Origin: an uncultured virus (IMG/VR IMGVR_UViG_3300044612_003086)
Taxonomy: Duplodnaviria > Heunggongvirae > Uroviricota > Caudoviricetes
Reading direction: 5' to 3' (one strand)
DNA length: 64,000 bases
Virus record (IMG/VR): IMGVR_UViG_3300044612_003086
Coordinates: 1 to 64,000 of that record
The translations under genes were made by a program, and so were the position numbers. The notes under the pieces are model-generated. The model was given only the letters and a program-made list of their open reading frames with translations, was not told where the DNA came from and made no database searches. Positions 5,582 to 29,474 of this stretch are shown piece by piece. Position 1 is the stretch's first letter, and each line of letters begins with the position of its first letter.

Positions 5582-5888
5582 TGGTATTTCTCCGTTTCTA
5601 GTAGTTGGGTTGGTTGTCGTGTACCACTGTAGCGACCCGACAGCAGATTTATCTCGCCACTTATCTAGTTAGTTCATACCACTTATCTAGTCAGTCCACT
5701 TATCTAGTTAGTTTCACTCGGACACTTATCTAGTTAGTTCCAGCCACTCGGTAATCGTTCGGCAACTTGCACCCGACCACCCCGTGCCTCGCCAACTTAC
5801 ACCCGACCACCCCGAGCCTCGCTTCCTTTGGAAGCCCCGCGGACTTATCTAGTTAGATACAGAATTATTAGATTTTTGACTTATCTAG

Positions 5889-6368
5889 TTAGTCAGGTCG
5901 CTTGGCGATAGAGATTCGGTACAAGCCACGCTTGACCTTGATGAACTCTGGAGTTTCGTTCACGAACCCGAGTGTCGTCTGATACGAGAATCCACACTGC
6001 TCAACCAGTTGCTCGGTGGTGAACTCTTTACCGTCTTGGGTCTTTGCCCACTCCATAAACGCACCCCATTTGTCCTTGCGTTTTTCAGGCTTCTGCATTG
6101 CTTCCCTCTGGACTTCCTTGCCACAGTATGTCTGAATAATGTGGTCGGCGATGTGGGGAAGCACGGAGTAAGAGTTCAGGTAAGAAAGCACATTTTTGCT
6201 TCCACCTTCCCTTTGCCATAATTGCAGTACATGTAGCCCACGAATCAGTTCGCTGGCATTGGACGCTTGTTCTTTGGGAATCCGATACATCGTTCCGAAT
6301 TCTTTTTCCATTTCCTTCCACATCTCTTTGTGGATTCCGTCAATGAATTCATCAGTCAGTTTTTTCAT
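5889..6368 (-). CDS. hypothetical protein, possible C-terminal winged HTH
   Basis: 159 aa; AAAGG RBS; own promoter element at 6414-6441. Confidence 0.7.
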   Translation of the reverse strand: MKKLTDEFIDGIHKEMWKEMEKEFGTMYRIPKEQASNASELIRGLHVLQLWQREGGSKNVLSYLNSYSVLPHIADHIIQTYCGKEVQREAMQKPEKRKDKWGAFMEWAKTQDGKEFTTEQLVEQCGFSYQTTLGFVNETPEFIKVKRGLYRISIAKRPD

Positions 6369-6732
6369 GGCTACCTTTCTAGCGGAACTTTATCCCGACT
6401 TGCCCGTCACTCCAGATTATCTTTTGGTAGGCAGACTTATCTGGTACGGCAACGCAAGAAAGTTATTTTTTTGACCACCTGACATCGAGGGCACTTCCTT
6501 TCCACCACCGTCAATTAGATTCACCACCCCCCGGGAATTAAATTTGTCAAATTTTTCATTTTTTTGCACGTTCTGGCGGCCGGCTGCGGCGGCTCTGGAT
6601 TTCTGGATTTTTTGGCAGCGAAACGCGGGGCTTACATGGTGAATCGGGTGCATAAAGAAAGAGGGTGGGTTTGACCCCACCCCCTGACTTATCTAGTTAG
6701 TTATCGGACTTATCTAGTAACTAGATAAGTGG

Positions 6733-7131
6733 CTACTGGTTCTTGAGAAAATCCTCAATGTCGGGAATCGTCTCTTTGGCTATTTCCCGTGCTTCCGAAT
6801 AAGCCATAGCGTCCATAATCAAGTCGTCCAGCATGTCTGCCAATGCACGGTCGTCCTCTGTGAGCAATGGTCCATCAGGACTTGGCACAAGAAACTTTAG
6901 CGCCTCATCCTTCTCCTTGTCGGGGAGTTGTGCAATTTCTTGCACCTGCGAGAAACTGAATCCCATTCGGTGACCATGATTCTGATAAACAAACAGTGCC
7001 TCGGTCAATGTCTGCAATGCGTCAAATCCGAATCTGATAAACGGATTCTCGGTGGGAAACTCGGTGTTATCAGAGAACACTTTTTTCATTATTTCTTGCA
7101 TTTCTTCATCATGGTTTTGTTGTTCGCTCAT
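6733..7131 (-). CDS. hypothetical protein
   Basis: 132 aa ORF, GAGG RBS. Confidence 0.7.
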   Translation of the reverse strand: MSEQQNHDEEMQEIMKKVFSDNTEFPTENPFIRFGFDALQTLTEALFVYQNHGHRMGFSFSQVQEIAQLPDKEKDEALKFLVPSPDGPLLTEDDRALADMLDDLIMDAMAYSEAREIAKETIPDIEDFLKNQ

Positions 7132-7280
7132 TTCACTTCCTCTTTCTGTTTGTCGTTGGTTATTAGCGAACGCAGGTCAAGCAACATGTCGGTCATTTCC
7201 GATGAAGCAACTAAGTCTCTGCCCGAGCAGTGACGAATCATTGTGTCCACCAGTTCGGTTGCTGTAAGTGTTTGGGTCAC
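7128..7280 (-). CDS. small hypothetical protein (50 aa, not in ORF track)
   Basis: GTG start in the 11-mer after AAGGGA; stop overlaps the next ATG (ATGA). Confidence 0.6.
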   Translation of the reverse strand: MTQTLTATELVDTMIRHCSGRDLVASSEMTDMLLDLRSLITNDKQKEEVK

Positions 7281-7284
7281 TTAT

Positions 7285-7989
7285 CTAGTTCCCTTCTTTG
7301 TCGTTGTCGGCTTCGGTGAGCAAGGTGTGAAACGCCTTTGCCTTTATTGCCATTTTCAGGTATGAAATCGTCTGAAGCATGGCATTGGTGAAACGAGCCT
7401 CAGCCATTTCGCTGTTCTCATCTGTCAGGTGAACAATGTCAGTGTCCACATCATCAAACATCGGTACACCTTGGTCGTCATAGGTGTAGGTGCTTGCGCT
7501 CATGTAAATCTTGTCCTGTTCCCAGTCCACGCCACTTACTACAAGACCCTCACGAACATCGGTGAAAGGGTTGTTTTGGAACTCATCTTTCAGCGATTCT
7601 CTTTCACTGTCACGGTCGGCTGGAGTCGTCAGGTCTGTGAAGCGACGCATGTAACCCTCAACAGCAACAAAGATGAAGTTCACTGGTGCTGTAGGCAAGT
7701 GACCAACAGCGTCAATGTAAGCGTCGTATGGGTCGCCTTTGTGAATCAGTGGAAGCATGGCAACATCGTATTGGCGTTCCAAGCCCAACTGCTTTGTGTA
7801 TTGACTTGCTGATTCAGCCAATTCATCATCTGTATCATCAGACTGGTGAATACGACCAATGATGAGCATTGGTGGGGTGTCGCTCATCGCAACCTCTTTG
7901 CACATTTCTTTTTTTGCATACTTGTTTCGGCGCATTACATCGCCGAGAATCTTTAGTATGTCGTTTGAGATTACTTGCTGTTCGCTCAT
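7285..7989 (-). CDS. hypothetical protein
   Basis: 234 aa, AAGGAG RBS, promoter element at 8020-8047; stop TAG supplied by the 11-mer. Confidence 0.75.
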   Translation of the reverse strand: MSEQQVISNDILKILGDVMRRNKYAKKEMCKEVAMSDTPPMLIIGRIHQSDDTDDELAESASQYTKQLGLERQYDVAMLPLIHKGDPYDAYIDAVGHLPTAPVNFIFVAVEGYMRRFTDLTTPADRDSERESLKDEFQNNPFTDVREGLVVSGVDWEQDKIYMSASTYTYDDQGVPMFDDVDTDIVHLTDENSEMAEARFTNAMLQTISYLKMAIKAKAFHTLLTEADNDKEGN

Positions 7990-8096
7990 GGCGTTTCTCC
8001 TTTGGTGGTAAGTACCAACACTGTATCTATTAGTAAGCAGACTTATCTAGTGAGTATGGGTGGGGTGTCCACTCCCCACCCATTTCACATCAGGCA

Positions 8097-8321
8097 TTAT
8101 TTTGCAATAATGTCTTGGGCGTTCACTTTCATCGCTTCGCACAACAATAGAAATGTCGTCATGCTTGGCGAGAAATGTCCGTTCTCAATGCGATTCACCG
8201 TTTTACGGTCAATGCCAGCCTTATTCGCCAGCGTTTCTTGTGACCACTCACGCTCAAGTCTTTCGTTCTTGAGTCGCTCTGCGATTCGCATTGTCTTTTT
8301 CTCAATGGCTGTAAGTGCCAT
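8097..8321 (-). CDS. XRE/Cro-family HTH transcriptional regulator
   Basis: WSQETLANKAGIDRKTVNRIENGHFSPS; AAGGAG RBS. Confidence 0.9.
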   Translation of the reverse strand: MALTAIEKKTMRIAERLKNERLEREWSQETLANKAGIDRKTVNRIENGHFSPSMTTFLLLCEAMKVNAQDIIAK

Positions 8322-8355
8322 GTCTTTCTCCTTTGTTTCTTGGTTGATTTTGGGT

Positions 8356-9123
8356 TTAGGACTTATCTAGTAAGTAATCGTCATACTGACTGAACGATAG
8401 TTTCTCCTTTCGCCTCTGATTAGAACGAATCCACGACACGATGAGTTGCATCGCCTTGTCGCACGAATCAACCATTTCATCGTCACGGTTTGCTCGCCAC
8501 TCACTCTGTGCTTCCCAGTATTCGTCCATTTGTTCATCGGTATCTTGGGGCATGCCCTCTATCTCCGAATCCATTTCGGTTACACCTTCGCCCTCAACAA
8601 TGAGTTCGCCATTGTGGATTACAACCCAACCAGCAAAGAACTCGGCTTCTTCCGTGAACACGACACCGAATACAAGTTTCGGGAACTGCTTTGAGATACG
8701 AGCGATAAGACCGTTACACGGCGACCATGCTGACTGGTAATACATTGAGACAGAACCCTTGTTGTAGTCGTCATCAGATACGCCAACATCACCTGCGCCC
8801 CACTTGCTTCCCCATACGGCGTTGGCATAGTCGTACCAGTCCTTGTAGCCGTACTTATCTAGGTTGTCTTGCATTTGCTTTTTGTGTTCAGCCTGTTTGT
8901 CCTCGGGAACTGAACCCGAAACCGTGTTCATCAACGCCTCGGGAATCGGGTCAAGGTGGTTGAGTGAATCAACTTCTACTTCTTTTTCACCAGTGGCTAC
9001 CCATTTGCCGTCTTGGATTTCTCCAGTCTTTTGCAATTCCTTTATCTTGAGTGATTTCAGGAATCGCTTGAGTTCAGGTTTCGGACCTGACACCTTCATT
9101 GTGTTACTGCACCAGTTTGGCAT
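8356..9123 (-). CDS. DUF1281/YubB-like ferredoxin-fold protein
   Basis: MPNWCSN start, WYDY...WGSKW, YQSAWSP motifs; AAAGGG RBS. Confidence 0.75.
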   Translation of the reverse strand: MPNWCSNTMKVSGPKPELKRFLKSLKIKELQKTGEIQDGKWVATGEKEVEVDSLNHLDPIPEALMNTVSGSVPEDKQAEHKKQMQDNLDKYGYKDWYDYANAVWGSKWGAGDVGVSDDDYNKGSVSMYYQSAWSPCNGLIARISKQFPKLVFGVVFTEEAEFFAGWVVIHNGELIVEGEGVTEMDSEIEGMPQDTDEQMDEYWEAQSEWRANRDDEMVDSCDKAMQLIVSWIRSNQRRKEKLSFSQYDDYLLDKS

Positions 9124-9401
9124 GCTCGCCCTTTCGTCTAGTAGTGGTACGACCCACTCTAGCCCCACACCAGCAGATTTATCAACCTGACTTATCTAGT
9201 CAGCATGTTCTTCCACCACCGTCAATGTCTTGATGTGTTCTCAACCCGACCCGACTTTCACCCGACCCACCCGTGAGCCGACCCAACTTCTTGCCGACCA
9301 CCCCGAACCAGCCCCACCCCATCACTTACCGTGTAAGCCCCGCGTCCCACTGTTTAGCCGGGGCTCAAAGGGTCGAGCTGGTTTAATTTGGTTGGACTTA
9401 T

Positions 9402-10223: not shown

Positions 10224-10236
10224 TTATCTAGTCCTT

Positions 10237-10737
10237 TCAGTACCAGCAGGTAGAGCCGTCTGCCTCATCGGCAGTCCAACGAAGCCACCAAATCGCATAA
10301 CGAATCTGAGGAATCAAATCCTCACCGTTCACGATGAACTCTGGAGAATCCTGAATCTTTTCGTTCAGAAACCATTCCATTTGGTTGGCAGTTGCTCGGC
10401 AACTCTCTGGAGACTTCTCCGTACCTTCCTCATTGTCGCCATAGAAATCGTATTCGCTAATGCCAAGAGCGTCAATGAGGTAGTTCCCCCACTTACCCCG
10501 ATACCAGCACGGAGTTCCGAACATGCCGTACACAGCACCTTCGGTCATGCCACTTGCCTTGACTGCTGTCTGATACGGGCATGCGTTGCGATTAGCAGTT
10601 TCCTCACAGGAAATGCTTTCCACGAACTCACCGTCTTGTCCACGAATCGGCTGACCTTCCTTGTCCAGTCGCCTCACCATTACTGCCGTGCCTTTGGACT
10701 TGCACGGGTAGTTCTTCGGTATGTTGTCTAATCCCAT
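10237..10737 (-). CDS. hypothetical protein (MGLD-start phage family)
   Basis: 166 aa, AAGGGG RBS, promoter element at 10769-10796. Confidence 0.75.
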   Translation of the reverse strand: MGLDNIPKNYPCKSKGTAVMVRRLDKEGQPIRGQDGEFVESISCEETANRNACPYQTAVKASGMTEGAVYGMFGTPCWYRGKWGNYLIDALGISEYDFYGDNEEGTEKSPESCRATANQMEWFLNEKIQDSPEFIVNGEDLIPQIRYAIWWLRWTADEADGSTCWY

Positions 10738-11073
10738 TTTCTTCCCCTTTGGTTTAGTAGGTGATTACACGATACATGTGTACGAGCAGACTTATCTAGT
10801 AATCCTTTCCACCACCGTCAAACAGTTAGAGCCAGCAAACGACATTCCCCCGACACGCCCGAACTTTGCGCACTTTTCCCCGACCACCCCCGTTGCTCGC
10901 AAAAAAATCCATTTTTTATCACTTCCCGTGTGAGCCCCGGCTCATGGTCGGGGCGCGGGGCTTCCATCGTCGGAAGCGAACTTATCTAGTAAGTATTCGG
11001 GTCGGCACTTATCTAGTAAGTATCCAGCCAGCCCGACCCACCGTTGGCAAGTGGGTCAGACTGACTAGATAAG

Positions 11074-11385
11074 TCACTCGGCTTCGGCGATACCAGCCCT
11101 GCCCTCGTAGCCACGAACAGCGTTAGAGATTTGCCCGTAATAGTCACCGTTCTCGCAGTACCAGCCTTCGGGTCGTGCGATGAGTGTCCACACCACGAAC
11201 GGCGAGTAGGTGTCGTTCGGCAAGTGGCACAGCACTGTCCACGAAGCGTACAGACCGTCACCAGCGACATTACGCAAGTGATACGCAAGCACCAAACCGT
11301 CATTGGCGTTAGTAAGCACCAGCCCCACTTTGGGGGCTGGTGACTTATCTAGTGAGTTGATGTGGTGAATAGTTGCTTCACTCAT
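11074..11385 (-). CDS. hypothetical protein
   Basis: ATG overlapping the end of the upstream gene. Confidence 0.6.
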   Translation of the reverse strand: MSEATIHHINSLDKSPAPKVGLVLTNANDGLVLAYHLRNVAGDGLYASWTVLCHLPNDTYSPFVVWTLIARPEGWYCENGDYYGQISNAVRGYEGRAGIAEAE

Positions 11386-11848
11386 TGGGAAGTTCACCGT
11401 TGGCGAAGTAGTTATCCATTTGCTCATCGGTCATACCGATTACCTTTGGTGCGAAGTTCTCATCATCGCTCGCCCAGTCGGTGAGCCAATTTGCGTACTC
11501 ACCGTCAGTGCGAACGGTCTTGACGAGATTTGCGAATTGCTCACTCCATACGAACGCAGGAACATCGTGGTTCTCTCCGTCATACTCGCCCTGCTCGTTG
11601 AGCGCACCGATTACCACGCAGTCACCTGCCAGTGGTCTGCCGAACAGTGCCGAAGCGACTGCGTTCATTGGCAAGCCGATGAGCAAGCCTTCATCGTTGA
11701 TGTAACCAACAATGCCCAAGTTTCCCTCGTTCACGCTGTCAAACCAACCACCTACGATTTCGTTGATGGCGATGTGAGCCGTGTCCTCGTCAAGAAAGAG
11801 TGGCAAGCACTCTCCCTCGCTTGTGATGTGTAATGCCTTTGTTGCCAT
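11378..11848 (-). CDS. DUF3846-like protein
   Basis: EIVGGWFDSV...YINDEGLLIGLPMN...LAGDCVVIG pattern. Confidence 0.75.
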   Translation of the reverse strand: MATKALHITSEGECLPLFLDEDTAHIAINEIVGGWFDSVNEGNLGIVGYINDEGLLIGLPMNAVASALFGRPLAGDCVVIGALNEQGEYDGENHDVPAFVWSEQFANLVKTVRTDGEYANWLTDWASDDENFAPKVIGMTDEQMDNYFANGELPNE

Positions 11849-11943
11849 TGTTCTACCCCCTTCGGGTCTAGGTATTTATTACGATTTCATCGTAATAGTG
11901 GGTGGGCAGACTTATCTAGTAAGTCCACCCACCCACTGAACGA

Positions 11944-12354
11944 CTAAGCGACTTTGCTCGCCTTGCTTGCTGGCTTGACTGCGCCCTTCGCTGGCTTCAC
12001 CAGCACTCGGACATAGTTCGTGATTTCCACGACTGACTTGATTACCTTGTTTGGTATTTCGCCCTTGTCCACTGCGCTATCCCACGCCTTCGTGTCCACG
12101 CTTGGCTTCGTCACCTTACGGAACAGAGCAGGACTGACTGACTTGCGCAACTTATCTAGTGAGAAAGACCTGCGCTCGCTCGGCGTGACCGAGAGAGTGA
12201 TTTCGTCTTGCGTGAAGTCGTTGATGCCGTTCTCGGCGAACACTGCGACAAGAGTTTCTCTTGCCACTTCGTGCGCCTGCTCGGCTTGTTCTTTCGCTGT
12301 GAGAGCGTTTAGGAACGCTTCCACTGCTTGCTTGACTTGGGTTTCTGTAGCCAT
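11944..12354 (-). CDS. hypothetical protein
   Basis: AAGGAG RBS before MATETQ; promoter element at 12395-12422. Confidence 0.75.
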   Translation of the reverse strand: MATETQVKQAVEAFLNALTAKEQAEQAHEVARETLVAVFAENGINDFTQDEITLSVTPSERRSFSLDKLRKSVSPALFRKVTKPSVDTKAWDSAVDKGEIPNKVIKSVVEITNYVRVLVKPAKGAVKPASKASKVA

Positions 12355-12721
12355 TGGTTTAGTCTCCTTTGTGTTGGGTGGTGGCTTGCGCACCACCCTA
12401 CACCCGTGAGAGCAGATTTACCAACATCGCTAGACAGATTTCTGAACTTGCCCCCGACACGCCCGATTTCCACTTGCCCCCGACCACCCCGTGCGCCCAT
12501 TATTCTTGCCCTATGCGCCCTTTCCTTGTAAGCCCCGGCAGCCAGCCCTTCCAACGGGGCTCAGAAGGTTGGATAGAGGAAAGGCTGGCACTTATCTATG
12601 AAATGACAGCCGAAGCGAACAGACTGATAGCAATAGCCGAAGCAAGCAACGCCGAAGCGAAAGCCCTGCTCGCTCGTAGTCGCTTCTCGCTCGTCAGGGA
12701 CTTATCTAGTTAGATAAGTGA

Positions 12722-12757: not shown

Positions 12758-12785
12758 ACTTTCGGTGGTTTAGTGGGAAAGGGGG

Positions 12786-13211
12786 TTAGAGATACTTCGC
12801 CACCGAGTTGTAGGTGCTTGCGCTCACCAACTGCTCGTCTGTGAGTTTCAGCACACGAATTGCCTGTGAGATTTCCTCTTTTTCACGCTTGAACTCGTGT
12901 TCGCTGTAACCCGTAGGGCGTTCAGGCTCGGCTGGGAGTGCGCCTGCTGGAAGCAGAACGCTGACGCTGAACGATACTTTGCCCTTGTGCTTGCGGTCAC
13001 GGGAGTACCAATAGTTCTTGCTGGCTTCCTCAATTTCGCCTTTTCCTGCTTTGATGAGTTTCAGGACAGCGAGGTTGTACGCCTCAACTGCCTTTTCGTA
13101 GGCAAGTTCCTCTTTCTCTTGGTTCTTGTACCGAGCCTCACGCTCGGCAAGAGCCTTCTCTAAGTGAGAGATGAGAACACTCACCTTCACCTTGACTTTG
13201 ACTGTGGACAT
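12786..13211 (-). CDS. hypothetical protein
   Basis: AAGGAG RBS before MSTVKVK; promoter element at 13258-13285. Confidence 0.75.
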   Translation of the reverse strand: MSTVKVKVKVSVLISHLEKALAEREARYKNQEKEELAYEKAVEAYNLAVLKLIKAGKGEIEEASKNYWYSRDRKHKGKVSFSVSVLLPAGALPAEPERPTGYSEHEFKREKEEISQAIRVLKLTDEQLVSASTYNSVAKYL

Positions 13212-13534
13212 TATTGCTCTCCTTGTTCGGGGTCTAGTTGGTATCCGAACACCACCCACGCTACGAACACGACAGCAGACTTATCTCCACTTATCTAGTC
13301 AGTTCAGTTTCCTTTCCACCACCGTCAATAAGTTGAGGACAGATGTTGGTCGCCGTTTCTTTCAGCGCAAACTTTCGCCCGACCACCCCGAAGCGCACTC
13401 ACTTCGCTTCACTCGCCTGCTTACCGTGTAAGCCCCGTGGTTTTTTGTTTTATTGAGCGAAGCGGGGCTCAAACCGTTGAGTGAGTGTTTGGCAACTTAT
13501 CTAGTGAGTGTGTGTGGACTTCGGACTTATCTAG

Positions 13535-13834
13535 TTAGTTATCGTCTATCGGCAGGTCTATCGCCTGTCCTGCGTGTATAGTCGTGCCGTACTTATCTAC
13601 TAAGTAATCGGCAACCTGCGTGATTTCGCCAGTACACTCTGTCTCTGCGATACTCCATAGCGTGTCACCCTCTCTAACGATTATCGTTGCTTCCGAGCAA
13701 GCGTAATCGGGCTGATTTGCTGTGTGAGTGGCAAGCAACGCAATGATAATAACTGCGATTATTGCGAACGCTCTGAACTTACGAGCAAGCATACGGTAGT
13801 GCTGGTCATACTTATCTAGTTCATTATTTCTCAT
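13535..13834 (-). CDS. membrane-anchored LysM domain protein
   Basis: TM segment then IIVREGDTLWSIA...IHAGQAIDLP. Confidence 0.8.
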   Translation of the reverse strand: MRNNELDKYDQHYRMLARKFRAFAIIAVIIIALLATHTANQPDYACSEATIIVREGDTLWSIAETECTGEITQVADYLVDKYGTTIHAGQAIDLPIDDN

Positions 13835-14095
13835 CAGTAACCCCCTGTATTTGGTTTCTCCAACTCTAACTCGTATCGGGCAGATTTATCTGACTTTCTC
13901 CCGACCACCCCGACGCTCCAATAAACGCAATAAACGCAACGCTACGCAGGGAGCCCCGGCTCCTCGCAGGCCGTGCTCGCCACCATGCTCGCAGGACTTA
14001 TCTAGTTAGATAGATAAGTGTCGGCAATGGAATAAGCCCGACACACTCTCGCAAGTATGTCGGGCTCGTCCGTGTCGGATGAGACGTGCTAGGTA

Positions 14096-14392
14096 CTACT
14101 CGTTATCCTCGCCGTACAGTTCCAAGTGTGCTTGCCAGTCAATGAATTGGCTTAGGTGCAATCCCTCTACAAGCGCATGAGTTGGGCAGGTTGCCTGCCC
14201 ACGCCATAGGATGCCTGCAGGCAGGTCAATCTCCACGTCCCAGTCGGCTTGCTGTGCGTTTGCGATTGCAACCTTGCACGGCTCCACCATGACGGCTGGA
14301 ATTGCTGGATAGTGATTGCTTGCTAGGTGCCAGCGAAGTGCAGTATCCATGTCTGCCACTTCTAGCATCCCTTCTAGTGAGTATCGTCCCAT
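14096..14392 (-). CDS. hypothetical protein
   Basis: 98 aa, AGGGGG RBS, promoter element at 14432-14459. Confidence 0.7.
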   Translation of the reverse strand: MGRYSLEGMLEVADMDTALRWHLASNHYPAIPAVMVEPCKVAIANAQQADWDVEIDLPAGILWRGQATCPTHALVEGLHLSQFIDWQAHLELYGEDNE

Positions 14393-14462
14393 TAGTAACC
14401 CCCTGTGTGTTGTGTGATTAGGACAAGTACCACGATAGTACCTGCCGTGCAGACTTATCTAG

Positions 14463-14744
14463 TTAGTCTGGCAGTCCGTAATAAGTCTCGTACTGTGGCT
14501 CGCATACTGCCTGCCAGCAATCGTTGCACCATTCACGCTCGCCATCCTCGTCTATGCGCCAGTACGTGATTAGCGACATACCTTCACGCCAACCTATCTC
14601 CGTACTGCAACGCTCGCAGGTACGTTCACCTACTCGCAAGTCTTTACCCTCGTAGTCGGCGTAGTTCAGTTCGCTGATAAGTACGGGCTCGTATTCAGGG
14701 ATACGTGTTATCCAGTTATCCAGTGCCTGTGTATCTAGTCTCAT
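14463..14744 (-). CDS. hypothetical Zn-finger-like protein
   Basis: CERC...CNDC; GAGG RBS. Confidence 0.65.
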   Translation of the reverse strand: MRLDTQALDNWITRIPEYEPVLISELNYADYEGKDLRVGERTCERCSTEIGWREGMSLITYWRIDEDGEREWCNDCWQAVCEPQYETYYGLPD

Positions 14745-15195
14745 AACTCTTACCTCGCTTAGTGATTGGATTAGTTCCTACTGATTACGGTATGGCGCAG
14801 TGGGCAGACTTATCTAATTAGTTCCACCCTCACTCTCGGCACTTGCCCCCGACCACCCCGACGCTCCACACCTGCTCGCTTGCGTTGGAAGCCCCGGGTT
14901 TCGCCGACTTCTGCGGGGCTTACAAGGTGCGAGCCGTTGGCTGGCATACGGGTATGTCGGGGGGAAGTTCGGCTCTTGCTCGGAGTGACTTCGTGGCTAG
15001 CGCACACGGCTATCGCCGTGCTTGCTCTCGGAGTGAACGCCTGACCGTCACGGTGGAGTTCGGTGCTTGCGTGAACTGACTAGATAAGTCGTATCGCTTG
15101 CGTGACGATGAACTAACTAGATAAGTCCATAAACGACTAAGCCCACCACGCAGGGGGTGCGTGGTGGGCTAGTCGGCTTGACCGAACGAACTTAT

Positions 15196-15636: not shown

Positions 15637-16146
15637 TGAGTTCCCCTTTCGTGGGATTAGTAGATACTCATACGATAACGGTGGGTGGGCAGACTTATCT
15701 AGTGAGTTCACACTTATCTAGTTATTCCACACGCCACGAAGCCATTGACCGTTTGCGTTGCCTGCCACTTCCACCCGACCTACCCGTTGCGCCACGCCCA
15801 CCCCACCCCCCCGACGCTGGAAGCCCCGCAGGGGCTGACGCCCCCCGGGGCTCCCAAAGGGAGCGAGGGCTGGGTGGTCACGGGGTAGTCGGCGCGAAGT
15901 TCGCTTTCGGTTGCTCTCTCGTGGTCTATGCTTCGCTTCGTGGTGGGCAACATACGGCTCGTTGCGAGTGGGGCTTCTTATCCTTTCTGACCCTACCCTG
16001 CTCAACCGTAATGGGTCTTTCGCTCGTAACGGAGTGGTTTACCGAGACAGCCGAGACTGCTCACCACAACTAACTAGATAAGTGACTAGATAAGTGGGGG
16101 CGTGGTCTTATCTAGTCAGTCATAGAACTAACTAGATAAGTGTCGC

Positions 16147-16772: not shown

Positions 16773-16832
16773 AGTTCCCCTTTCGTTGGTACTGGTAATG
16801 GTATCGGCGTGTTGGCAGACTTATCTAGTTAG

Positions 16833-17315: not shown

Positions 17316-17654
17316 CAGTATCCCTTTCGTAGTATCCCTGTAATCAGCATAACCCACATCACGCAGACTTATCTAGTATCTATTTACGCTTGCTCGCTCG
17401 CTGGACTTATCTAGTAAGTTCACGCCACCTTCACCTTGCGCCCTTCGCCTTCTCTCCCAGTCGCACTTCTCGCCCGACCCCACCCGACCCACCCACTTGC
17501 GCCCGACCCACCCGTTGCGCCTTCACTTCTCCCCCGACCCACCCCGTGTGGGAGCCCCGCTACCCGACCGGTCTTCCGGGTGACCTGACCGGTTTATACC
17601 GGGGCTTCTGTGGGCCATGGCCCGCAGGGGACTGAACCCCTGCGAGCTGCTGGC

Positions 17655-17879: not shown

Positions 17880-18114
17880 ATTGTCCCCTTTCGTTCGTGG
17901 CTTGCGCCAAGCGAAGCCTAGTAACAGGAGGGCAGAGTTATCTCGCGCGCAGCAGGAGCCCCGTGTTTTGTGTCTCGGTTATTCTCAACGGGGCTTCTTT
18001 GATGCGAGGAATGTTTTTCGCATCGGGGTGGTCGGCAAAAAGTTTGGCTGTTGTTGGAATGATGTTTGCTCTCGCTACGATGTTTGCAACCTACTAGAAA
18101 CGGAGAAATTGATA

Positions 18115-19058: not shown

Positions 19059-19415
19059 GCTCCCCCTCTGGGGGAGACCATCTCCCCCGACAGAACCATC
19101 GTACCCAATGTGGGGCAGACTTATCTAGTCAGTTTAGATTTTGCTCACACTTATCTAGTCGGTTCATGGAACGACACGACACCGACAAAAGAACAGACAG
19201 AGAGAGCAGGTGCTCGGTCGGCAGACTTGCCCCCGACCCACCCGAACAGAAGGCGCAGCACACACTGTGTGAGCCCCGGCTAGGAACGCTTGCAGCGAAA
19301 GCTGCGGGGCTTACAGCGTTTTGGTGGCTGTCGAAACAGCCATGCCATCGGGGTAGTCGGCAGAAAGTGGAAAAAAGATTTGCTTTTTTATTGCAGTACC
19401 AGTAATGTGAAGAAC

Positions 19416-20042: not shown

Positions 20043-20116
20043 CTAGATAAGTGTCCAGATAAATCTGCTCGTCATTTATTACCATTATTAGTACCTACTA
20101 CCGAAAAGGGGAAAAT

Positions 20117-21705: not shown

Positions 21706-21811
21706 GGTTGGCTCCTTCTAGTTACTTGTCTCAGGTGGCTTATTGCCACTTGGGGACAGACTAGGGCTTGCCAATACGAGTTCACAACCTCCAACAAAGA
21801 TTTTTTTTATG

Positions 21812-21840
21812 TTGCATGGTGGCGTAAAGATGACTAATAT
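21812..21840 (+). promoter_or_regulatory. sigmaA-type promoter
   Basis: TTGCAT-17-TAATAT upstream of the histone-like gene. Confidence 0.5.
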
Positions 21841-21898
21841 TGCCTCCGACCGATGTGAAGCGCTCACAAAGGCAAACAAACAACTAGGAGATAGCTAA

Positions 21899-22873: not shown

Positions 22874-22879
22874 AATCTA

Positions 22880-23077: not shown

Positions 23078-23331
23078 AACTTAATCCCGACCACCCCGTG
23101 CCTTGCTATCAAATTTTAAAAATCCGTACAGAACTAGCAAGAGCAGCACGGAAACAATAACGCTGTTGGTATCCATGGACCCATGATAGCGATTTTCTCG
23201 CTTTTCATCAAGCTCACTGATAAACCTGCTTTCCTCGACTTAGGATTCACATCGCAGACCGGCAGGGCTCACACTCTCCTTTCGGTATCCAACACACGTG
23301 AGCCTTGTCGGTCCTCATTTTTATCTGTACA

Positions 23332-25269
23332 ATGTCCATCGTGAAGTTATTTTTAGACCACAACGAAATAATTCTTGATTTTCCATTTGATGCCGGCCAG
23401 GTTGAGGAAATAAAACGCATATCAGGTGCAAGGTGGGACAAGATTGGCCGTGTGTGGCGCTTACCAATTACGGCTATCAATGAAGGTCGTGAGTTTGCAT
23501 TGCGTCATAACTTTGAGGTCACTGTCGATGCTCTAAAGTTCTCCGTACCAATACCTGCTATAGGGCGCACCGGTGCTCGTGTGTATGTCGATAATGGTAT
23601 GGCGGTTATCCGTGTGCCTTATGAGCGAGTAATCATTAAGGCTATTAAACAAATACCTGGCATTACATGGGATAGCAAAATGCTTGCATGGAAAGCCCCC
23701 CTTACATCGATTACAAATATCATTACGTGGGCCAAATCTTTCGGCGTTACCGTAGACAATGAGCTAATGGACATGGCTGTACAAGTAGAGACAGAGATGA
23801 CTGAATTGATACAGGCATCACGCTCGGTAGACGCAGAGATACAGATACCTGAACTACAAGGCGCACTGCTGCCGTATCAGAAAGCTGGAGTTTCGTACGC
23901 TGCAAGAGCCCGTAGGACATTTATCGCTGACGACATGGGTCTCGGAAAGACACTGCAGGCGATGTCCACGCTCGAATACGTTCACGACAGTTACCCAGCA
24001 GTCGTTGTATGTCCACCAAGTCTCGTGCTTAACTGGGCGAGTGAATATTCGAAGTGGTATCCACATCGCAAGGTGGCCACTGTGACGAACCGTAAGTCAT
24101 TCCCTGACGCAGGCACATATGACGTTGTGGTAGTTGGATACAGCAATATCGCTACATGGGAGAAGCAACTATCCAAACATCGCTCGTACGTATGGGATGA
24201 AAGCCACTATCTAAAAACGCCCACCTCGCAGAGAACGAAAGCAGCAGTCAAGATAGCTCGTAGCGCACCAAAAGAAGGTCTCGTATTGTGTCTCACGGGA
24301 ACACCCGTAACGAACAGGCCGAACGAATACGCAAGCCAACTTGATGTACTGGGTCGCCTCAAGGACTTTGGTGGGTTGTGGGGTTTCTATCGACGCTATT
24401 GCGCTGCATACCAAGACAGTTTTGGTCAGTGGAATATCAGTGGACACTCACACCTAGACGAACTCAATGACAGGCTTCGTGGCACTTGCTACATACGCCG
24501 TACGAAAGACCAAGTGTTATCGGAGTTGCCACCCGTAGTCCATAGCAAATTGCTGGTAGAGGGCTCATCACAAGCGATGAAAGAATACAAGAAAGCAGAG
24601 AACGACATTATTCTCTACATCGCAGAGCGAGCCCGACAACTCGCCATAGAGCAGGGCAAGTCACAGCACGGCGCTGCCATATCAGCAATGATTAGGGCAG
24701 AAGCGAACGAACATTTAGTCCGTCTGTCGGTGCTTCGCCGTCTTGCTGCGAAAGCAAAGATGGAAGTCGCTCATGAGTGGATTACTGAACGTATAGAGGC
24801 CGGCCGTAAGGTCGTTGTCGCTGCACACCATCGAGACATCGTTGACGAAATCGCCCGTAAGTATGGAGACCTACGTATTCAGGGTGGAATGAAGGTTGAG
24901 GAAGTAGAGGAGAATAAACGCAAGTTTCAGCAGTTAACCGTAGATAAAGCACCCGTAATCGTGTTATCTATCCAGGCTGCCAAAACTGGACACACACTCA
25001 CTGCGTCAGAGGAGTGTTTATTCATAGAACTTCCGTGGACACCAGCAGACGTAGACCAGACATACTCACGCCTACATCGCATCGGACAACAAGGAAGCGT
25101 GACGGCAACTTATCTATTAACTAAAGACACCATTGATGAGGAGATTTATCAACTCATCGAGCGAAAGCGTTCGGTGGTAAATGCGTCAGTAGAAGGTGGG
25201 GAGTTCGCTAACGAGGATAGTGCCGTGCAACTTATTCTGAATTTACTCGGTAAAGCAGAACAGAACTAA
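23332..25269 (+). CDS. SNF2-family helicase with N-terminal HARP-like repeats
   Basis: ADDMGLGKT, DESH, LTGTP, Q-x-x-SRLHRIGQ; two N-terminal (A/T)-x-WD...W-x-x-P repeats. Confidence 0.92.
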   Translation: MSIVKLFLDHNEIILDFPFDAGQVEEIKRISGARWDKIGRVWRLPITAINEGREFALRHNFEVTVDALKFSVPIPAIGRTGARVYVDNGMAVIRVPYERVIIKAIKQIPGITWDSKMLAWKAPLTSITNIITWAKSFGVTVDNELMDMAVQVETEMTELIQASRSVDAEIQIPELQGALLPYQKAGVSYAARARRTFIADDMGLGKTLQAMSTLEYVHDSYPAVVVCPPSLVLNWASEYSKWYPHRKVATVTNRKSFPDAGTYDVVVVGYSNIATWEKQLSKHRSYVWDESHYLKTPTSQRTKAAVKIARSAPKEGLVLCLTGTPVTNRPNEYASQLDVLGRLKDFGGLWGFYRRYCAAYQDSFGQWNISGHSHLDELNDRLRGTCYIRRTKDQVLSELPPVVHSKLLVEGSSQAMKEYKKAENDIILYIAERARQLAIEQGKSQHGAAISAMIRAEANEHLVRLSVLRRLAAKAKMEVAHEWITERIEAGRKVVVAAHHRDIVDEIARKYGDLRIQGGMKVEEVEENKRKFQQLTVDKAPVIVLSIQAAKTGHTLTASEECLFIELPWTPADVDQTYSRLHRIGQQGSVTATYLLTKDTIDEEIYQLIERKRSVVNASVEGGEFANEDSAVQLILNLLGKAEQN

Positions 25270-25733: not shown

Positions 25734-25781
25734 CTTGCCTCACTTTTCTATGGGCTTGACTAATAATACCCGTACTAGAAG

Positions 25782-26807: not shown

Positions 26808-27012
26808 TTCGTGTCTTTCCTTCTCTCTCTTTTAGATAAATCTAACCGAGTATTGCCTGGTTCATTGTACACCGGGGCTCCAGAGGCAGGGGCAGTGGTT
26901 GGGGTTCGGTCTGTGGCGAGGGCGCACGGGTGGGTCGGCAGAAAGTCGGATAATTCTGCTCGTCAATGGTTATGATTTATTCAGGAACTAACGCTCGTGA
27001 AAGGGGCAACTA

Positions 27013-27291
27013 ATGAAGTTACTAGATAAGTGCGAAAACTGGTGTCAGGAACATTATCTCGGAACGATGAAGGCTCTGCTCGGCATTATCTCTGCCGTGC
27101 CGACTATCGGACTGTTCGGAGTGGTTCAGGCGTACTACAACAGCAACATCGGCGACCTGCTGACCTGTTTGTTCATCGTGGTAGGTGGAACGGTGATTAC
27201 CACCCTATTCGCTCTGACCGTGTACAACGAACATCAAGACGAACGCTACGGCTCTATTCGCCGTCACCCAGTCACGAAGCGAGTGCGCTAA
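27013..27291 (+). CDS. hypothetical membrane protein
   Basis: Two TM segments; AAGGGG RBS; promoter element at 26949-26976. Confidence 0.7.
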   Translation: MKLLDKCENWCQEHYLGTMKALLGIISAVPTIGLFGVVQAYYNSNIGDLLTCLFIVVGGTVITTLFALTVYNEHQDERYGSIRRHPVTKRVR

Positions 27292-27992: not shown

Positions 27993-28225
27993 ATAAGTCT
28001 CAACGGTCACCCGTAGCCTCTGCGCTCTTATCCCCAACCCCCTTTCATCAAGGGCGTAGGGGTTACGGGGTTTCACTTATCTAGTGAGCATTACTCTGCT
28101 ACGGCGAGACTATGACTTACTAGATAAGTGTTCATCACAAGTGAGGGCAAAGTGCGAAGCACTGCGCCAGCCGGGGCTCCGAGCGTTTGAGTGTGGTTTG
28201 TGTTGTAACTAGATAAGATGATGAG

Positions 28226-28558
28226 ATGAACGAGAACACCTATCGAACAGCAAAGACAATTCTCATCGCTATCGCAATAACACTTGCGTCAGTATTCGCA
28301 TTTGGGTATTTGGAAAGACAGCAAGCAAGAGACAGTGAGTTCTTTTGTGATGGCACACCAGTCACTATCAAAGAAGGCGACACTCTCTATTGGATAGCCC
28401 GAACAAAGTGTGAAGGCAACACTATGGAAGTGGTGGACAGACTTGTCGCCCTGTACGGCACGACATTGACTATCGGTGACACCATCTATCTGCCGACACA
28501 CAACTCCTGTGAGTTGCGTATGACAGACGGTGGTCAAGTAATGGAAGAGTGTGCGTGA
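28226..28558 (+). CDS. membrane-anchored LysM domain protein (paralog of 13535-13834)
   Basis: TM segment then VTIKEGDTLYWIA...LTIGDTIYLP. Confidence 0.8.
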   Translation: MNENTYRTAKTILIAIAITLASVFAFGYLERQQARDSEFFCDGTPVTIKEGDTLYWIARTKCEGNTMEVVDRLVALYGTTLTIGDTIYLPTHNSCELRMTDGGQVMEECA

Positions 28559-28567
28559 TGAACTTAT

Positions 28568-28771
28568 CTAGTTCAGTATCTGTCCAACACTGACAACGAA
28601 AACTTCTCCACAGTAAAGCACACGGGCGTACTGTTTATCTGTGTCGTGGTATGAGATGAACTCTGCTTCCACAGCACCCGTAGTCATTCGGCGTGCCTTG
28701 TCTGAAACGATGTGACCGAACGACACTGGTATCAACAGCGTCTGACCTACGGTAAGTCCTTTGGTAATCAC
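28568..28771 (-). CDS. hypothetical protein
   Basis: 67 aa; start overlaps upstream stop; stop inside the 11-mer. Confidence 0.5.
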   Translation of the reverse strand: MITKGLTVGQTLLIPVSFGHIVSDKARRMTTGAVEAEFISYHDTDKQYARVLYCGEVFVVSVGQILN

Positions 28772-28956
28772 TAGATGCCGTATGTTCCGAGTTGAGTGCG
28801 CTCTGCTTGGCGCAAGACTTCGTAGATTTCGGAAACATGCGCTTCCGTGTGTTCATCATCAGCGAACAACCTGACTATCTGTAAGACACACTCCAAGCGA
28901 GCAACCTGCTGTGCCGTAAGTGTGATAGTGAGTTCTGCGTTTCGTGCTATTCCCAT
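28771..28956 (-). CDS. hypothetical protein
   Basis: AAGGGG RBS; promoter element at 28978-29005. Confidence 0.6.
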   Translation of the reverse strand: MGIARNAELTITLTAQQVARLECVLQIVRLFADDEHTEAHVSEIYEVLRQAERTQLGTYGI

Positions 28957-29004
28957 TGTGTTCCCCTTTCGGTATTGACCTTAGGGTAGGGCGAGCAGAC
29001 TTAT

Positions 29005-29412
29005 CTATTTACTATCTGTGACATCACGCCACTGACCATCAACGACCACCTGATAGTGCGCCCCCGACACTGGCACGAGTTCGCCATTAGCATTGCGTTC
29101 ATACTTGCCGAAGTTCTCAGTGGAACGCCATGCCCACTCACAGCACGGTGTTTCACTATCGCAGGGGTGTGTCCCCTTACCTATCGTCTCTGCCAATGCT
29201 GGGAACAGAGTAAGGAACTTCACTATGCAGTCGTGACACAGTATCCAACTACGGCTACGGCGATTACTAAACAGTACATCTACCTCATCAGTGAAGCCAC
29301 CATAGTAACCAAATAGGTCAAATGGTAAATCCCAACCGTTACTAGGTAGGTGCTTTTGTTCATCGCACTGGACATCGTAGTCACAACCTGAACAGCGAAC
29401 ATGGTTACTCAT
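29005..29412 (-). CDS. hypothetical Cys-rich protein
   Basis: CSGC...CHDC; promoter element at 29422-29449. Confidence 0.65.
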   Translation of the reverse strand: MSNHVRCSGCDYDVQCDEQKHLPSNGWDLPFDLFGYYGGFTDEVDVLFSNRRSRSWILCHDCIVKFLTLFPALAETIGKGTHPCDSETPCCEWAWRSTENFGKYERNANGELVPVSGAHYQVVVDGQWRDVTDSK

Positions 29413-29474
29413 AACATCTCAACGATAGTCGTATGCGAGCAGACTTATCTAGTACCCGTAGCACTTGGCGACTT

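What the first reader, a model, noticed from the sequence alone, without database searches (positions are those of the whole stretch)
5626..29449. Non-canonical promoter class GATAARTCTGC-N11-TANNNT, 20 copies, overlapping the 11-mer
Seen: 20 elements have GATAA(G/A)TCTGC (rare single variants), exactly 11 variable bases, then TANNNT (TACAGT, TAGAGT, TATCGT, TACGAT, TACCAT, TATGAT and others). Each lies just upstream of a gene start, on either strand as needed, with no evident TTGACA-like -35. In about half, the 11-mer overlaps the upstream box (ACTAGATAAGTCTGC). Core genes instead use ordinary -35/17/-10 promoters (35789, 36456, 21812). Established: TANNNT is the actinobacterial housekeeping -10, and T4 middle promoters pair a host -10 with a MotA box near -30. 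Inference: a phage factor redirects host RNA polymerase by replacing -35 recognition with a box near -29. The shared GATAAG core suggests that one protein, or two competing ones, switch these promoters.
Basis: partly seen in the sequence, partly recalled or inferred. Interest (0 to 1): 0.88.

Follow-up and report, generated by a model that had tools for sequence, protein, structure and literature searches.

The report
Repeated early-gene promoters of an actinophage
An uncultured lake phage of actinobacteria starts 21 short gene cassettes from copies of one promoter whose upstream box mixes a signal shared by the whole phage family with a few bases private to this lineage, so an unidentified factor besides the host's standard promoter reader probably controls them.

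Summary
GATAARTCTGC-N11-TANNNT (up to 1 mismatch) occurs 21 times, against 0.04 expected. All copies lie at 5.6-29.5 kb and there are none elsewhere in the 133.9-kb genome. Each points at a start codon 9-58 nt downstream.

Related uncultured phages resolve the box into layers. A family-wide core, AAG-YCTG, sits exactly 12 nt from TANNNT in 9 of 9 lineage groups. A weak -35-like T(T/A)G lies 18 bp from the -10. A few lineage-private bases remain; here the GATA part, which coincides with the 3' part of an 80-copy 11-mer.

The geometry matches T4 MotA boxes and the actinobacterial PafBC "-26 element", but the sequence matches neither.

No phage sigma, RNA polymerase, WYL or MotA/AsiA-like protein was found. 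The HA-HTH and XRE proteins have invariant recognition helices and remain candidates only. There are no data on transcription start sites.

The claim of "no -35" is overstated, and a phage factor is plausible but unproven. I class this as a new variant of a known kind, of moderate interest.

The parts
5626..5653 (-). Box promoter 1 (GATAAATCTGC-N11-TACAGT). It drives gene 4853-5581 (AAA ATPase). A separate 11-mer lies 16 nt upstream.
   Evidence: orthologous promoter in L172
6414..6441 (-). Box promoter 2 (GATAAGTCTGC-N11-TAATCT). It drives gene 5889-6368.
   Evidence: ortholog in L172
8020..8047 (-). Box promoter 3. It drives gene 7285-7989. The 11-mer overlaps the box.
9156..9183 (-). Box promoter 4 (GTTGATAAATCTGC). 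It drives gene 8356-9123 and then the XRE HTH gene 8097-8321. The downstream gene (MPNWC...) keeps a promoter of this type in at least 5 other lineages.
10769..10796 (-). Box promoter 5. It drives gene 10237-10737.
11889..11916 (-). Box promoter 6. It drives gene 11378-11848.
12395..12422 (-). Box promoter 7 (variant GGTAAATCTGC). It drives gene 11944-12354.
13258..13285 (-). Box promoter 8. It drives gene 12786-13211.
13863..13890 (-). Box promoter 9. It drives gene 13535-13834.
14432..14459 (-). Box promoter 10. It drives gene 14096-14392.
14787..14814 (-). Box promoter 11. It drives gene 14463-14744.
15672..15699 (-). Box promoter 12. It drives gene 15196-15636.
16798..16825 (-). Box promoter 13. 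It drives gene 16449-16772.
17346..17373 (-). Box promoter 14. It drives gene 16833-17315.
17915..17942 (-). Box promoter 15 (variant GATAACTCTGC). It drives gene 17655-17879.
19098..19125 (-). Box promoter 16. It drives gene 18597-19058.
20058..20085 (+). Box promoter 17. It drives gene 20117-20539.
23219..23246 (+). Box promoter 18 (variant GATAAACCTGC). It drives the SNF2-type helicase ORF 23305-25269 through a 58-nt leader without an obvious ribosome-binding site. Part of the leader is conserved in relatives.
26949..26976 (+). Box promoter 19 (variant GATAATTCTGC). It drives gene 27013-27291.
   Evidence: ortholog in L126 keeps box, spacing and T-A---T while the spacer diverged
28978..29005 (-). 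Box promoter 20. It drives gene 28771-28956.
29422..29449 (-). Box promoter 21. The ATG lies 9 nt after the -10, so the message to gene 29005-29412 is nearly leaderless.
1999..2373 (+). Candidate trans factor (inferred only): a 124-aa HA-domain plus sigma-70 region-4-like HTH protein. Its own promoter carries a perfect LexA-type palindrome.
   Evidence: HTH helix invariant in 40 of 40 relatives
8097..8321 (-). Candidate trans factor (inferred only): a 74-aa XRE/Cro-type HTH protein, encoded in the cassette driven by promoter 4.
   Evidence: recognition helix RKTVNRIEN identical in 6 of 6 lineages although the proteins are only 50-68% identical

Best explanation
These are 21 copies of one promoter type. 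They drive the short cassettes of mostly unknown small genes at 5.6-29.5 kb, probably the early or host-takeover block, in a roughly 134-155-kb myovirus of Actinobacteria.

The TANNNT is read by region 2 of the host's primary sigma factor. If TANNNT is placed at -12 to -7, the 11-base box lies at -34 to -24 and has three layers:
1. A family-wide frame, G(-34) and AAG-YCTG (-31 to -25), kept exactly 12 nt from the -10 in every related lineage examined.
2. A weak -35-like T(T/A)G at -36 to -34, 18 bp from the -10.
3. A few lineage-private bases (-35, -33, -32, and -24 onward). Here they read A, AT and C, and they make the box overlap the genome's 80-copy 11-mer ACTAGATAAGT.

The distance to the -10 is invariant. 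So whatever reads the core is most likely part of the initiation complex: an adaptor or class-II-type activator working with sigma, as MotA/AsiA do in T4 or PafBC does in mycobacteria. It is less likely to be a free-standing operator protein.

Shown: the motif, its statistics, its gene context, and its conservation and layering across relatives. Inferred: promoter activity, the sigma involved, the existence of the adaptor and its phage origin.
For: - Statistics and anatomy: 21 hits against 0.04 expected. TANNNT sits at exactly N11 in 19 of 19 strict boxes. All 21 are followed by a start codon 9-58 nt later on the same strand.
- Confinement to one block of the whole genome.
- Relatives: AGYCTG-N12-TANNNT is present at 2-10 copies per 10-17 kb in 10 of the 18 loci examined, against 0.03-0.37 in shuffles. 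It is followed by a ribosome-binding site and ATG.
- A spacing scan from N8 to N16 peaks sharply at N12 in 9 of 9 lineage groups.
- Orthologous promoters (4 pairs with L126/L172, and the MPNWC gene in at least 5 lineages) keep box, spacing and T-A---T while spacers diverge.
- Each lineage has its own invariant bases around the shared core. Host sigma alone does not explain this.
- A complete relative, G008, has the same layout: 21 hits at 102-130 kb plus 2 outside that span (140 and 146 kb), and 56 copies of its own 11-mer at 92-131 kb.
- Canonical TTGnnn-17-TAnnnT promoters serve other genes of the same phage. So the box class is a distinct class.
- The geometry equals that of the MotA box, 12 +/- 1 bp from the -10 (PMC2988021), and of the PafBC -26 element at -23 to -28 (PMC8635444).
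- An actinobacterial host is supported by a WhiB gene and by capsid similarity to Brevibacterium and Gordonia phages.
Against: - There are no transcription start or expression data. The two RNA libraries that hold the phage gave only short contigs.
- No candidate adaptor was identified. No sigma region 2, WYL, RNA polymerase, MotA or AsiA family was found among 81 + 66 + 5 ORFs or in six-frame searches. However, the record is only 89% complete and ORFs under 45 aa were not scanned.
- A -35-like hexamer at 18 bp exists (TAGATA here; TTGGCA, TTGTCA and TAGACA in relatives). Unaided host polymerase may therefore suffice.
- If this is the early block, dependence on a phage-made activator needs an earlier source of that protein. 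None was shown.
- The within-genome invariance of the private bases could in part reflect copy-and-paste spread of cassettes.
Confidence: 0.5

Rival explanations
1. Host RNA polymerase with its primary sigma reads these promoters unaided. The box would be an odd -35 (T[A/T]G... at 18 bp) plus a spacer sequence that favours strong initiation. These would then be simply strong constitutive early promoters.
For: - The hexamer 18 bp from the -10 is nnGATA (TAGATA in 13 of 21).
- Relatives show good actinobacterial -35 forms (TTGGCA, TTGTCA, TTGGGA, TAGACA) at 17-18 bp.
- G at -34, the key base of TTG, is present in 21 of 21.
- Several lineages add TGG just before the -10, which is an extended -10 form.
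- Early genes must be read by unmodified host enzyme.
- No phage factor was found.
Against: - TCTG at -28 to -25 is invariant (21 of 21 apart from one C variant) and is conserved across the family at a fixed distance. Sigma region 4 is not known to read bases there.
- Bases at -33/-32 are invariant within a genome but differ between lineages (AT, GG, GC, TA). A shared, highly conserved host sigma does not predict this.
- The general sigma-70 consensus scan flagged only 1 of the 21 (9183).
- The phage's canonical promoters use TTGnnn at 17 bp.
Confidence: 0.25
2. The box is chiefly an operator. A phage repressor, either the reader of the 11-mer or an early-shutoff protein such as the XRE HTH made from cassette 4, binds GATAAGTCTGC and silences all 21 promoters together. 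This would resemble the 'stoperator' system of Cluster A mycobacteriophages, where an asymmetric site overlaps the -35 of the early promoter (recalled, no call).
For: - The 11-mer ACTAGATAAGT occurs 80 times at 2.7-30.1 kb, against 0.66 expected. It lies mostly on the gene strand and between genes or on stop codons.
- It overlaps 12 of the 21 boxes and lies just upstream of 4 more.
- Each related lineage has its own version of the repeat, as immunity specificities do.
- An XRE-type HTH is encoded inside the block.
- The neighbouring HA-HTH gene carries a LexA-type box, which hints at a switch that senses DNA damage.
Against: - An operator need not keep an exact distance to the -10, yet the spacing is exact in 19 of 19 boxes here and peaks at one value in 9 of 9 lineage groups.
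- Five promoters have no 11-mer nearby yet keep GATAA-TCTGC.
- In L183 the 11-mer is like the window's, but the box is of the GGGAAG type. So the two signals are separable.
- No repressor with lineage-variable recognition residues was found. The XRE helix is invariant.
- This rival does not exclude the main explanation for the TCTG core.
Confidence: 0.2
3. The promoters are read by an alternative sigma factor, either from the host or encoded in the missing 11% of the phage record, whose -35 element is the box.
For: The motif has a two-block architecture with fixed spacing. GATAAG lies 16 bp from TANNNT, within the range of sigma-70-family spacers.
Against: - A degenerate TANNNT is the mark of primary-type sigmas (PMC8635444).
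- The family-wide conserved part (YCTG) lies only 12 bp from the -10, too close for a -35 contact.
- No sigma region 2 appears in any frame of the 133.9-kb record.
- Only a lone region-4-like HTH is present.
Confidence: 0.05

Closest known systems
T4 middle promoters (MotA box plus sigma-70 -10; sigma appropriation by AsiA and MotA), PMC2988021
   Same: Both combine a host-type -10 with a phage-specific box that sits where the -35 would be. The MotA box lies 12 +/- 1 bp from the -10 and is centred at -30. Here the box ends 11 bp, and the YCTG core 12 bp, from TANNNT. Both exist as many copies per genome and serve pre-replicative genes.
   Different: The box sequence is unrelated: (a/t)3TGCTTtA against GATAARTCTGC. 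No MotA or AsiA family member was detected. The host is actinobacterial. Here a weak -35-like TAG/TTG remains. The dependence on a phage protein is shown for T4 but not here.
PafBC-dependent promoters of Actinobacteria (sigma adaptation; -26 element plus canonical -10), PMC8635444
   Same: The host phylum is the same. Both pair a canonical tA(N3)T -10 with a specific element at -23 to -28 and have no clear -35. The invariant TCTGC lies at -28 to -24.
   Different: PafBC reads a strictly conserved GTC triplet. In the recA scaffold this triplet lies 12 nt from the -10 (supplement table). The phage has CTG at that place, and its (G/A)TC is 2 nt further upstream, with G in only 13 of 21. No WYL protein is encoded in the phage.
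Promoter-early stem-loop (PeSL) cassettes of T4-type phages, PMC2839356 (abstract read)
   Same: Both are many near-identical early promoters punctuating a plastic region of small, mostly unknown genes. The repeats could serve as recombination points for cassette shuffling.
   Different: PeSLs are strong canonical sigma-70-like promoters joined to terminator hairpins. Here complementarity flanking the box is not above control (5.62 against 5.26 +/- 0.26), and the upstream element is not a canonical -35.
Stoperators and the operator at the early promoter of Cluster A mycobacteriophages (L5 gp71); recalled, no paper read here
   Same: Both have an asymmetric short site repeated tens of times, oriented with transcription, differing between related phages and overlapping the -35 region of early promoters. 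The 11-mer here behaves this way.
   Different: That system is a repressor system of temperate phages with an identified repressor. Here no repressor or integrase was identified. The promoter core (YCTG at a fixed distance) is a separate signal from the repeat.

Membership tests
T4-type middle promoter (sigma appropriation) | Host primary-sigma -10 element present | tested here: met
   TANNNT is present in 21 of 21 elements.
T4-type middle promoter (sigma appropriation) | Specific box about 12 +/- 1 bp upstream of the -10, in place of the -35 | tested here: met
   The box ends 11 bp from the -10 in 21 of 21. The YCTG core lies 12 bp away in 9 of 9 lineage groups. The reference value comes from PMC2988021.
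T4-type middle promoter (sigma appropriation) | MotA box sequence (a/t)(a/t)(a/t)TGCTTtA | tested here: not met
   The box is GATAARTCTGC.
T4-type middle promoter (sigma appropriation) | Phage encodes MotA and AsiA homologues | tested here: not met
   Pfam scans of 81 + 66 + 5 ORFs reported no such family. ORFs under 45 aa were not scanned and the record is 89% complete.
T4-type middle promoter (sigma appropriation) | Activity depends on phage-made proteins | not testable with these tools
   There is no culture and no start-site data.
PafBC (RecA-independent) promoter / sigma adaptation | Canonical -10 plus a specific element at -23 to -28, and no consensus -35 | tested here: inconclusive
   TCTGC lies at -28 to -24, which fits. 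However, a weak -35-like hexamer at 18 bp is present.
PafBC (RecA-independent) promoter / sigma adaptation | Strictly conserved GTC triplet 12 nt upstream of the -10 | tested here: not met
   That place holds CTG in 21 of 21. RTC lies 14 nt upstream, with G in 13, A in 6, and C and T in 1 each.
PafBC (RecA-independent) promoter / sigma adaptation | WYL-domain activator | tested here: not met
   No WYL match in any frame of the phage record at E up to 1. The host genome is unknown.
Canonical primary-sigma promoter (-35 / 17 +/- 1 / -10) | -35 hexamer close to TTGACA at 16-18 bp | tested here: inconclusive
   TAGATA (4 of 6 matches) lies at 18 bp in 13 of 21, and nnGATA in 20 of the 21 (nnGGTA in promoter 7). 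Only 1 of 21 passed the tool's consensus scan. Relatives have TTGGCA, TTGTCA or TAGACA.
PeSL cassette (T4-type phages) | Promoter joined to a terminator stem-loop | tested here: not met
   The best stems across the box average 5.62 pairs, against 5.26 +/- 0.26 in 500 permutations.
Stoperator/operator system (Cluster A mycobacteriophages) | Asymmetric site repeated many times, oriented with transcription and overlapping the early promoter's -35 | tested here: met
   There are 80 copies, 59 on the - strand where most genes lie. The site overlaps 12 of 21 boxes. The family features themselves are recalled, not read.
Stoperator/operator system (Cluster A mycobacteriophages) | Cognate repressor encoded by the phage, co-varying with the site | tested here: inconclusive
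   The two HTH proteins found have invariant recognition helices. A whole-genome comparison of G008 with G001 gave no outlier, but G001 lacks part of the block.

The most novel reading that the evidence does not exclude
A family of large lake actinophages carries its own 'sigma adaptor'. This would be a phage protein that docks on the host's primary-sigma polymerase and reads a -26/-30 element (AAG-YCTG) at about 20 promoters per genome. It would be the first MotA/AsiA- or PafBC-like reprogramming system found in phages of Actinobacteria. The best candidate is the conserved HA-domain plus sigma-region-4-like protein. Its own leaderless gene sits behind a perfect LexA box, so the whole early block would be wired to the host's DNA-damage state.
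Probability: 0.15. Interest if true: 0.8.

Novelty: new variant of a known kind. Interest (0 to 1): 0.5.

Why it matters
In Actinobacteria many promoters have only a -10, and it has been proposed that adaptors at the -35 side are widespread (PMC8635444, passages). A phage family that places a fixed element at -30 to -25 in about 20 promoters per genome gives a clean natural set of sites, with natural variants across lineages. These could be used to find such an adaptor and to test how an actinobacterial polymerase is reprogrammed.

It also gives a practical marker for annotating transcription units in a large group of uncultured lake phages. Finally, it suggests how their blocks of small unknown genes are switched as one regulon.

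Tried and rejected
1. Hairpin idea. Some boxes sit between inverted repeats (for example 11916, 14459, 16825). Over all 21, the best stems are not above a permutation control (5.62 against 5.26 +/- 0.26). Rejected as a general feature.
2. Scan of viral contigs with the exact 28-nt pattern. It gave 118 stretches, and all but one of the 80 listed were single chance hits. Not useful.
3. DNA similarity to deposited phages, in near and distant modes. No match.
4. RNA evidence. Two metatranscriptome runs hold 5-10% of the words of an 10-kb stretch. When laid on the window they gave only 180-260-nt contigs inside genes, with no ends and no strand. Nothing can be said about starts or expression.
5. 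PafBC reading. The geometry fits, but the GTC triplet is not at the required place.
6. Phage-encoded sigma region 2, WYL, MotA/AsiA or RNA polymerase. None found.
7. HA-HTH structure. The model is good (pLDDT 84), but there is no significant match among solved structures (best E 0.37) and only weak sequence matches.
8. Complex prediction of HA-HTH with region 4 of a mycobacterial primary sigma used as a stand-in. No verdict (score 0.00). This counts neither for nor against binding.
9. The 158-aa protein (1229-1705, - strand) encoded divergently from HA-HTH looked like a possible co-varying reader in one three-way comparison. Its identities do not follow the repeat type, and it is acidic with no known domain. 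Dropped.
10. Whole-genome comparison of G008 (11-mer like the window's) with G001 (different repeat) to find a protein that follows the repeat type. No outlier was found, and G001 lacks part of the early block.
11. The palindrome GAACATATGTTC as a second operator class. There is only one perfect copy in the window.
12. Literature. Searches for TANNNT + phage + promoter, phiC31 + early promoters, and actinophage/freshwater/promoter/WhiB found no description of this motif. The whiB-actinophage paper PMC10914622 (passages) does not treat promoters. Subscription journals are not covered, so older actinophage promoter work could not be checked.

Full report
**What the window is.** The window is the first 64 kb of a single-contig virus record of 133,891 bp with 46% G+C. 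CheckV estimates the record as 89% complete.
- It encodes a tail sheath, baseplate, terminase and major capsid protein.
- The capsid protein is 46-49% identical to those of Brevibacterium phage Cantare and a group of Gordonia phages.
- A WhiB-family gene lies at 47309-47677 on the - strand. This family is typical of Actinobacteria and their phages.
- No deposited phage is similar at the DNA level.
- Contigs of two RNA libraries labelled freshwater metagenome match the window at 99% or more. In X1 this was 8 of 14 laid contigs.
- The region 5.6-29.5 kb is a run of short genes, most without any family.

**The observation.** The motif is there and is far beyond chance.
- GATAARTCTGC-N11-TANNNT with up to one mismatch occurs 21 times, against 0.04 expected. 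No shuffle reached more than 1.
- The strict box GATAA.TCTGC occurs 19 times, and every copy has TANNNT at exactly 11 nt.
- Three further box-like copies in the block have a mismatch inside TCTGC and no TANNNT. Four box-like hits elsewhere in the genome also lack it.
- Information content is maximal at G, T, A, A of GATAA, at TCTGC and at T, A, T of the -10. It is near zero in the spacer and flanks.
- All 21 copies face a start codon of an ORF of 61 aa or more, 9-58 nt (median 35) downstream. Of these, 19 have a purine-rich ribosome-binding stretch.
- A general sigma-70 consensus scan is not enriched over shuffles in this region. It picks up only one of the 21.

**Relatives.** A DUF932 protein of the block and the HA-HTH protein each retrieved dozens of related viral contigs. 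Protein identities ranged from 100% down to 65%.
- Contigs of the same lineage carry the same box and 11-mer.
- Of the 38 loci, I examined 18 for AGYCTG-N12-TANNNT. Ten had 2-10 copies, against 0.03-0.37 in shuffles. Eight had none.
- Those eight belong to more distant lineages. Two of these lineages visibly have their own versions:
  - cTAGACATCTG-N13/14-TAnnnT. Here TAGACA is a 5-of-6 match to a -35 at 17-18 bp.
  - TTGTTG...TAATAAGCC-n-TAcatT followed after 6 nt by ATG, which would give leaderless messages.
- In nine lineage groups, a scan of spacings N8 to N16 between (R/T)(R/T)YCTG and TANNNT peaks sharply at N12. Examples are 23 against 2-8 in the window, 12 against 0-2 in G001 and 17 against 0-5 in G002.
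- The same gene keeps the promoter in different lineages, for example the gene beginning MPNWC. Four orthologous pairs between the window and its nearest diverged relatives keep box, spacing and T-A---T while the 11-nt spacer is almost wholly different.
- A complete relative, G008 (156 kb), has 21 such sites at 102-130 kb, plus 2 outside that span at 140 and 146 kb, and 56 copies of its own 11-mer at 92-131 kb.

**Anatomy of the box.** Take TANNNT as -12 to -7. The window's box then spans -34 to -24. Aligned on YCTG, the lineages read as follows:

| Lineage | Sequence up to and past YCTG |
|---|---|
| window | T A G A T A A G TCTG C |
| G001, L184 | T T G G G A A G TCTG (A/T)CCC |
| L183 | T T G G G A A G YCTG TCC |
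| G002 group | T T G G C (T/A) A G TCTG TACC |
| L173 | T (T/A) (T/G) (G/A) T A A G TCTG AACC |
| L176 | T T G T A G T TCTG TACC |
| L144 group | A T C G C T A G TCTG |

- G(-34) and AAG-YCTG (-31 to -25) are family-wide.
- T(T/A)G at -36 to -34 looks like the start of a -35 hexamer with an 18-bp spacer.
- Positions -35, -33 and -32, and the bases just after YCTG, are fixed within a genome but differ between lineages.
- In this lineage the private bases make the box overlap the 11-mer ACTAGATAAGT. That 11-mer occurs 80 times (up to 1 mismatch) at 2.7-30.1 kb, against 0.66 expected. It overlaps 12 of the 21 boxes and lies 14-17 nt upstream of 4 more.
- The two signals are separable. L183 has an 11-mer like the window's but a GGGAAG-type box. 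Also, five of the window's promoters have no 11-mer nearby and still keep GATAA-TCTGC.

**How it most likely works.** The degenerate TANNNT is the -10 of the actinobacterial primary sigma (PMC8635444, passages). The exact distance between the core and the -10 holds in every copy and every lineage. A free-standing operator need not keep register.

The core at -30 to -25 is too close to the -10 for sigma region 4. It lies where two known adaptor systems act:
- The T4 MotA box, 12 +/- 1 bp from the -10 (PMC2988021).
- The PafBC -26 element at -23 to -28 (PMC8635444).

Some bases are invariant within a genome but differ between relatives. This argues for a reader that evolves with the phage rather than the host's conserved sigma. 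Copy-and-paste spread of cassettes could mimic that pattern. However, orthologous promoters carry each lineage's own box while their flanks and spacers are not homogenised. Selection by a trans-acting reader is therefore the simpler account.

I put about 0.5 on 'primary sigma plus a docked adaptor or activator, probably phage-encoded'. I put 0.25 on unaided host polymerase, 0.2 on a mainly repressive operator and 0.05 on an alternative sigma. The operator reading can coexist with the first for the 11-mer part.

**Membership.** The element is not a MotA box by sequence, and no MotA or AsiA homologue was seen. It is not a PafBC promoter either.
- PafBC reads a strictly conserved GTC.
- In the published recA scaffold that GTC lies 12 nt from the -10 (supplement).
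- The phage has CTG there in 21 of 21, and its (G/A)TC lies two bases further up, with G in only 13 of 21.
- No WYL protein is encoded.
- It is not a PeSL cassette in the strict sense, because no hairpin accompanies it (PMC2839356, abstract).

It works like these systems in geometry, but it belongs to none of them.

- The HA-HTH is a 124-aa protein with a helicase-associated domain and a sigma region-4-like HTH. It is present in all lineages, and its helix-turn-helix SLREIAD.FDLSRQRVHQI is the same in 40 of 40 loci apart from one residue.
- The XRE-type protein of cassette 4 has an invariant recognition helix in 6 of 6 lineages, although the proteins are only 50-68% identical overall.
- Either protein could read the invariant core. 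Neither can read the private bases.
- Structure prediction and searches gave nothing specific for the HA-HTH. A complex prediction with sigma region 4 gave no verdict.
- Two attempts to find a protein that follows the repeat type failed.

**Prior knowledge.** Three literature searches found no description of this motif. The library does not cover most subscription journals.

Earlier notes of this scan describe the same class on a sibling genome of about 155 kb and reached the same two-signal reading (e1-5739395). I re-derived that reading independently here. Other notes describe lineage-private boxes in a 160-kb relative (e1-5645127), a leaderless version (e1-5943526, which resembles what I saw in L140) and PafBC-like boxes in a 101-kb lake phage (e1-5999416). 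I tested the PafBC motif on this window and it is not met.

**Verdict.** This is a real, well-defined and family-wide phage promoter class with a -26/-30-type element and an unidentified reader. I class it as a new variant of a known kind. Interest is moderate (0.5). It would rise sharply if a phage-encoded adaptor for the actinobacterial primary sigma were demonstrated.

Noticed in passing
window 2720-30141: The 11-mer ACTAGATAAGT occurs 80 times with up to 1 mismatch (0.66 expected). It lies mostly on the gene strand. About 40 copies are between genes and 16 lie on stop codons by my crude gene calls, and some form inverted pairs. Each related lineage has its own version (AGGTGTAGGTAAG, CTAATAGATAACT, ACTAAAGGATAATG, GGTAGATAAGTC, AATAGATAAGT, AGTAGATAAGT). 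It resembles stoperators, and its reader is unknown.
   Followed up: partly
window 1955-2001 (upstream of the HA-HTH gene 1999-2373): A perfect 14-bp palindrome CGAACATATGTTCG sits 2-4 nt before a TANNNT. The palindrome equals the Gram-positive LexA operator consensus given in PMC8270828. The TANNNT is followed after 6-7 nt by the ATG, which implies a leaderless message. The arrangement is conserved, with zero to two changes in the palindrome, in 9 of the 16 related loci printed and probably 2 more. This suggests that the gene is under host SOS control.
   Followed up: partly
window, 5' leaders of the 21 cassettes: ACTA, often as CTACTA(A/G), occurs in 11 of 21 leaders, about 8-15 nt before the ribosome-binding stretch. 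Shuffles give 2.8 +/- 1.5. Leaders in relatives show the same motif.
   Followed up: partly
window 23247-23304 and relatives L126, L129, L133, L136: The long leader between promoter 18 and the SNF2-type helicase ORF holds a stretch conserved across lineages (...GGCTGACGGGTCAC... in relatives, GACCGGCAGGGCTCACA here). There is no obvious ribosome-binding site. It may be an RNA element.
   Followed up: no
window 35789-35848, 36456-36520, 21812-21898: Canonical TTGnnn-17-TAnnnT promoters precede the SSB gene and two other genes. So the phage uses at least two promoter classes.
   Followed up: partly
window about 21745-21790, - strand: There is a relic-like copy of the G001-type box (CTAGTCTGTCCCC). 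It is followed after 12 nt by AATAAG instead of TANNNT.
   Followed up: no
G000 116.9-129.3 kb (loci L159, L160): A run of at least nine 2OG-Fe(II) oxygenase-family genes sits with two glutathione-peroxidase-like genes and an aspartyl/asparaginyl hydroxylase-like gene.
   Followed up: no
G000 74948-83335 (locus L157): A 2794-aa protein combines an ArdC N-terminal domain, a zincin-like metallopeptidase and a UvrD-type helicase. A neighbouring 2457-aa ORF (65789-73165) has no family at all.
   Followed up: no
loci L152-L156 and L140: More distant relatives have their own multi-copy promoters. One is cTAGACATCTG-N13/14-TAnnnT followed by a near-invariant leader ...ATCTCAAGAAAGGGGATA. The other is TTGTTG...TAATAAGCC-n-TAcatT-N6-ATG, which would give leaderless messages.
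   Followed up: partly
relatives L173, L176, G001, L183, L184: Most promoters in these lineages have TGG directly before TAnnnT (an extended -10 form, TGn) and CC about 6 nt further up. The window's lineage lacks this.
   Followed up: no
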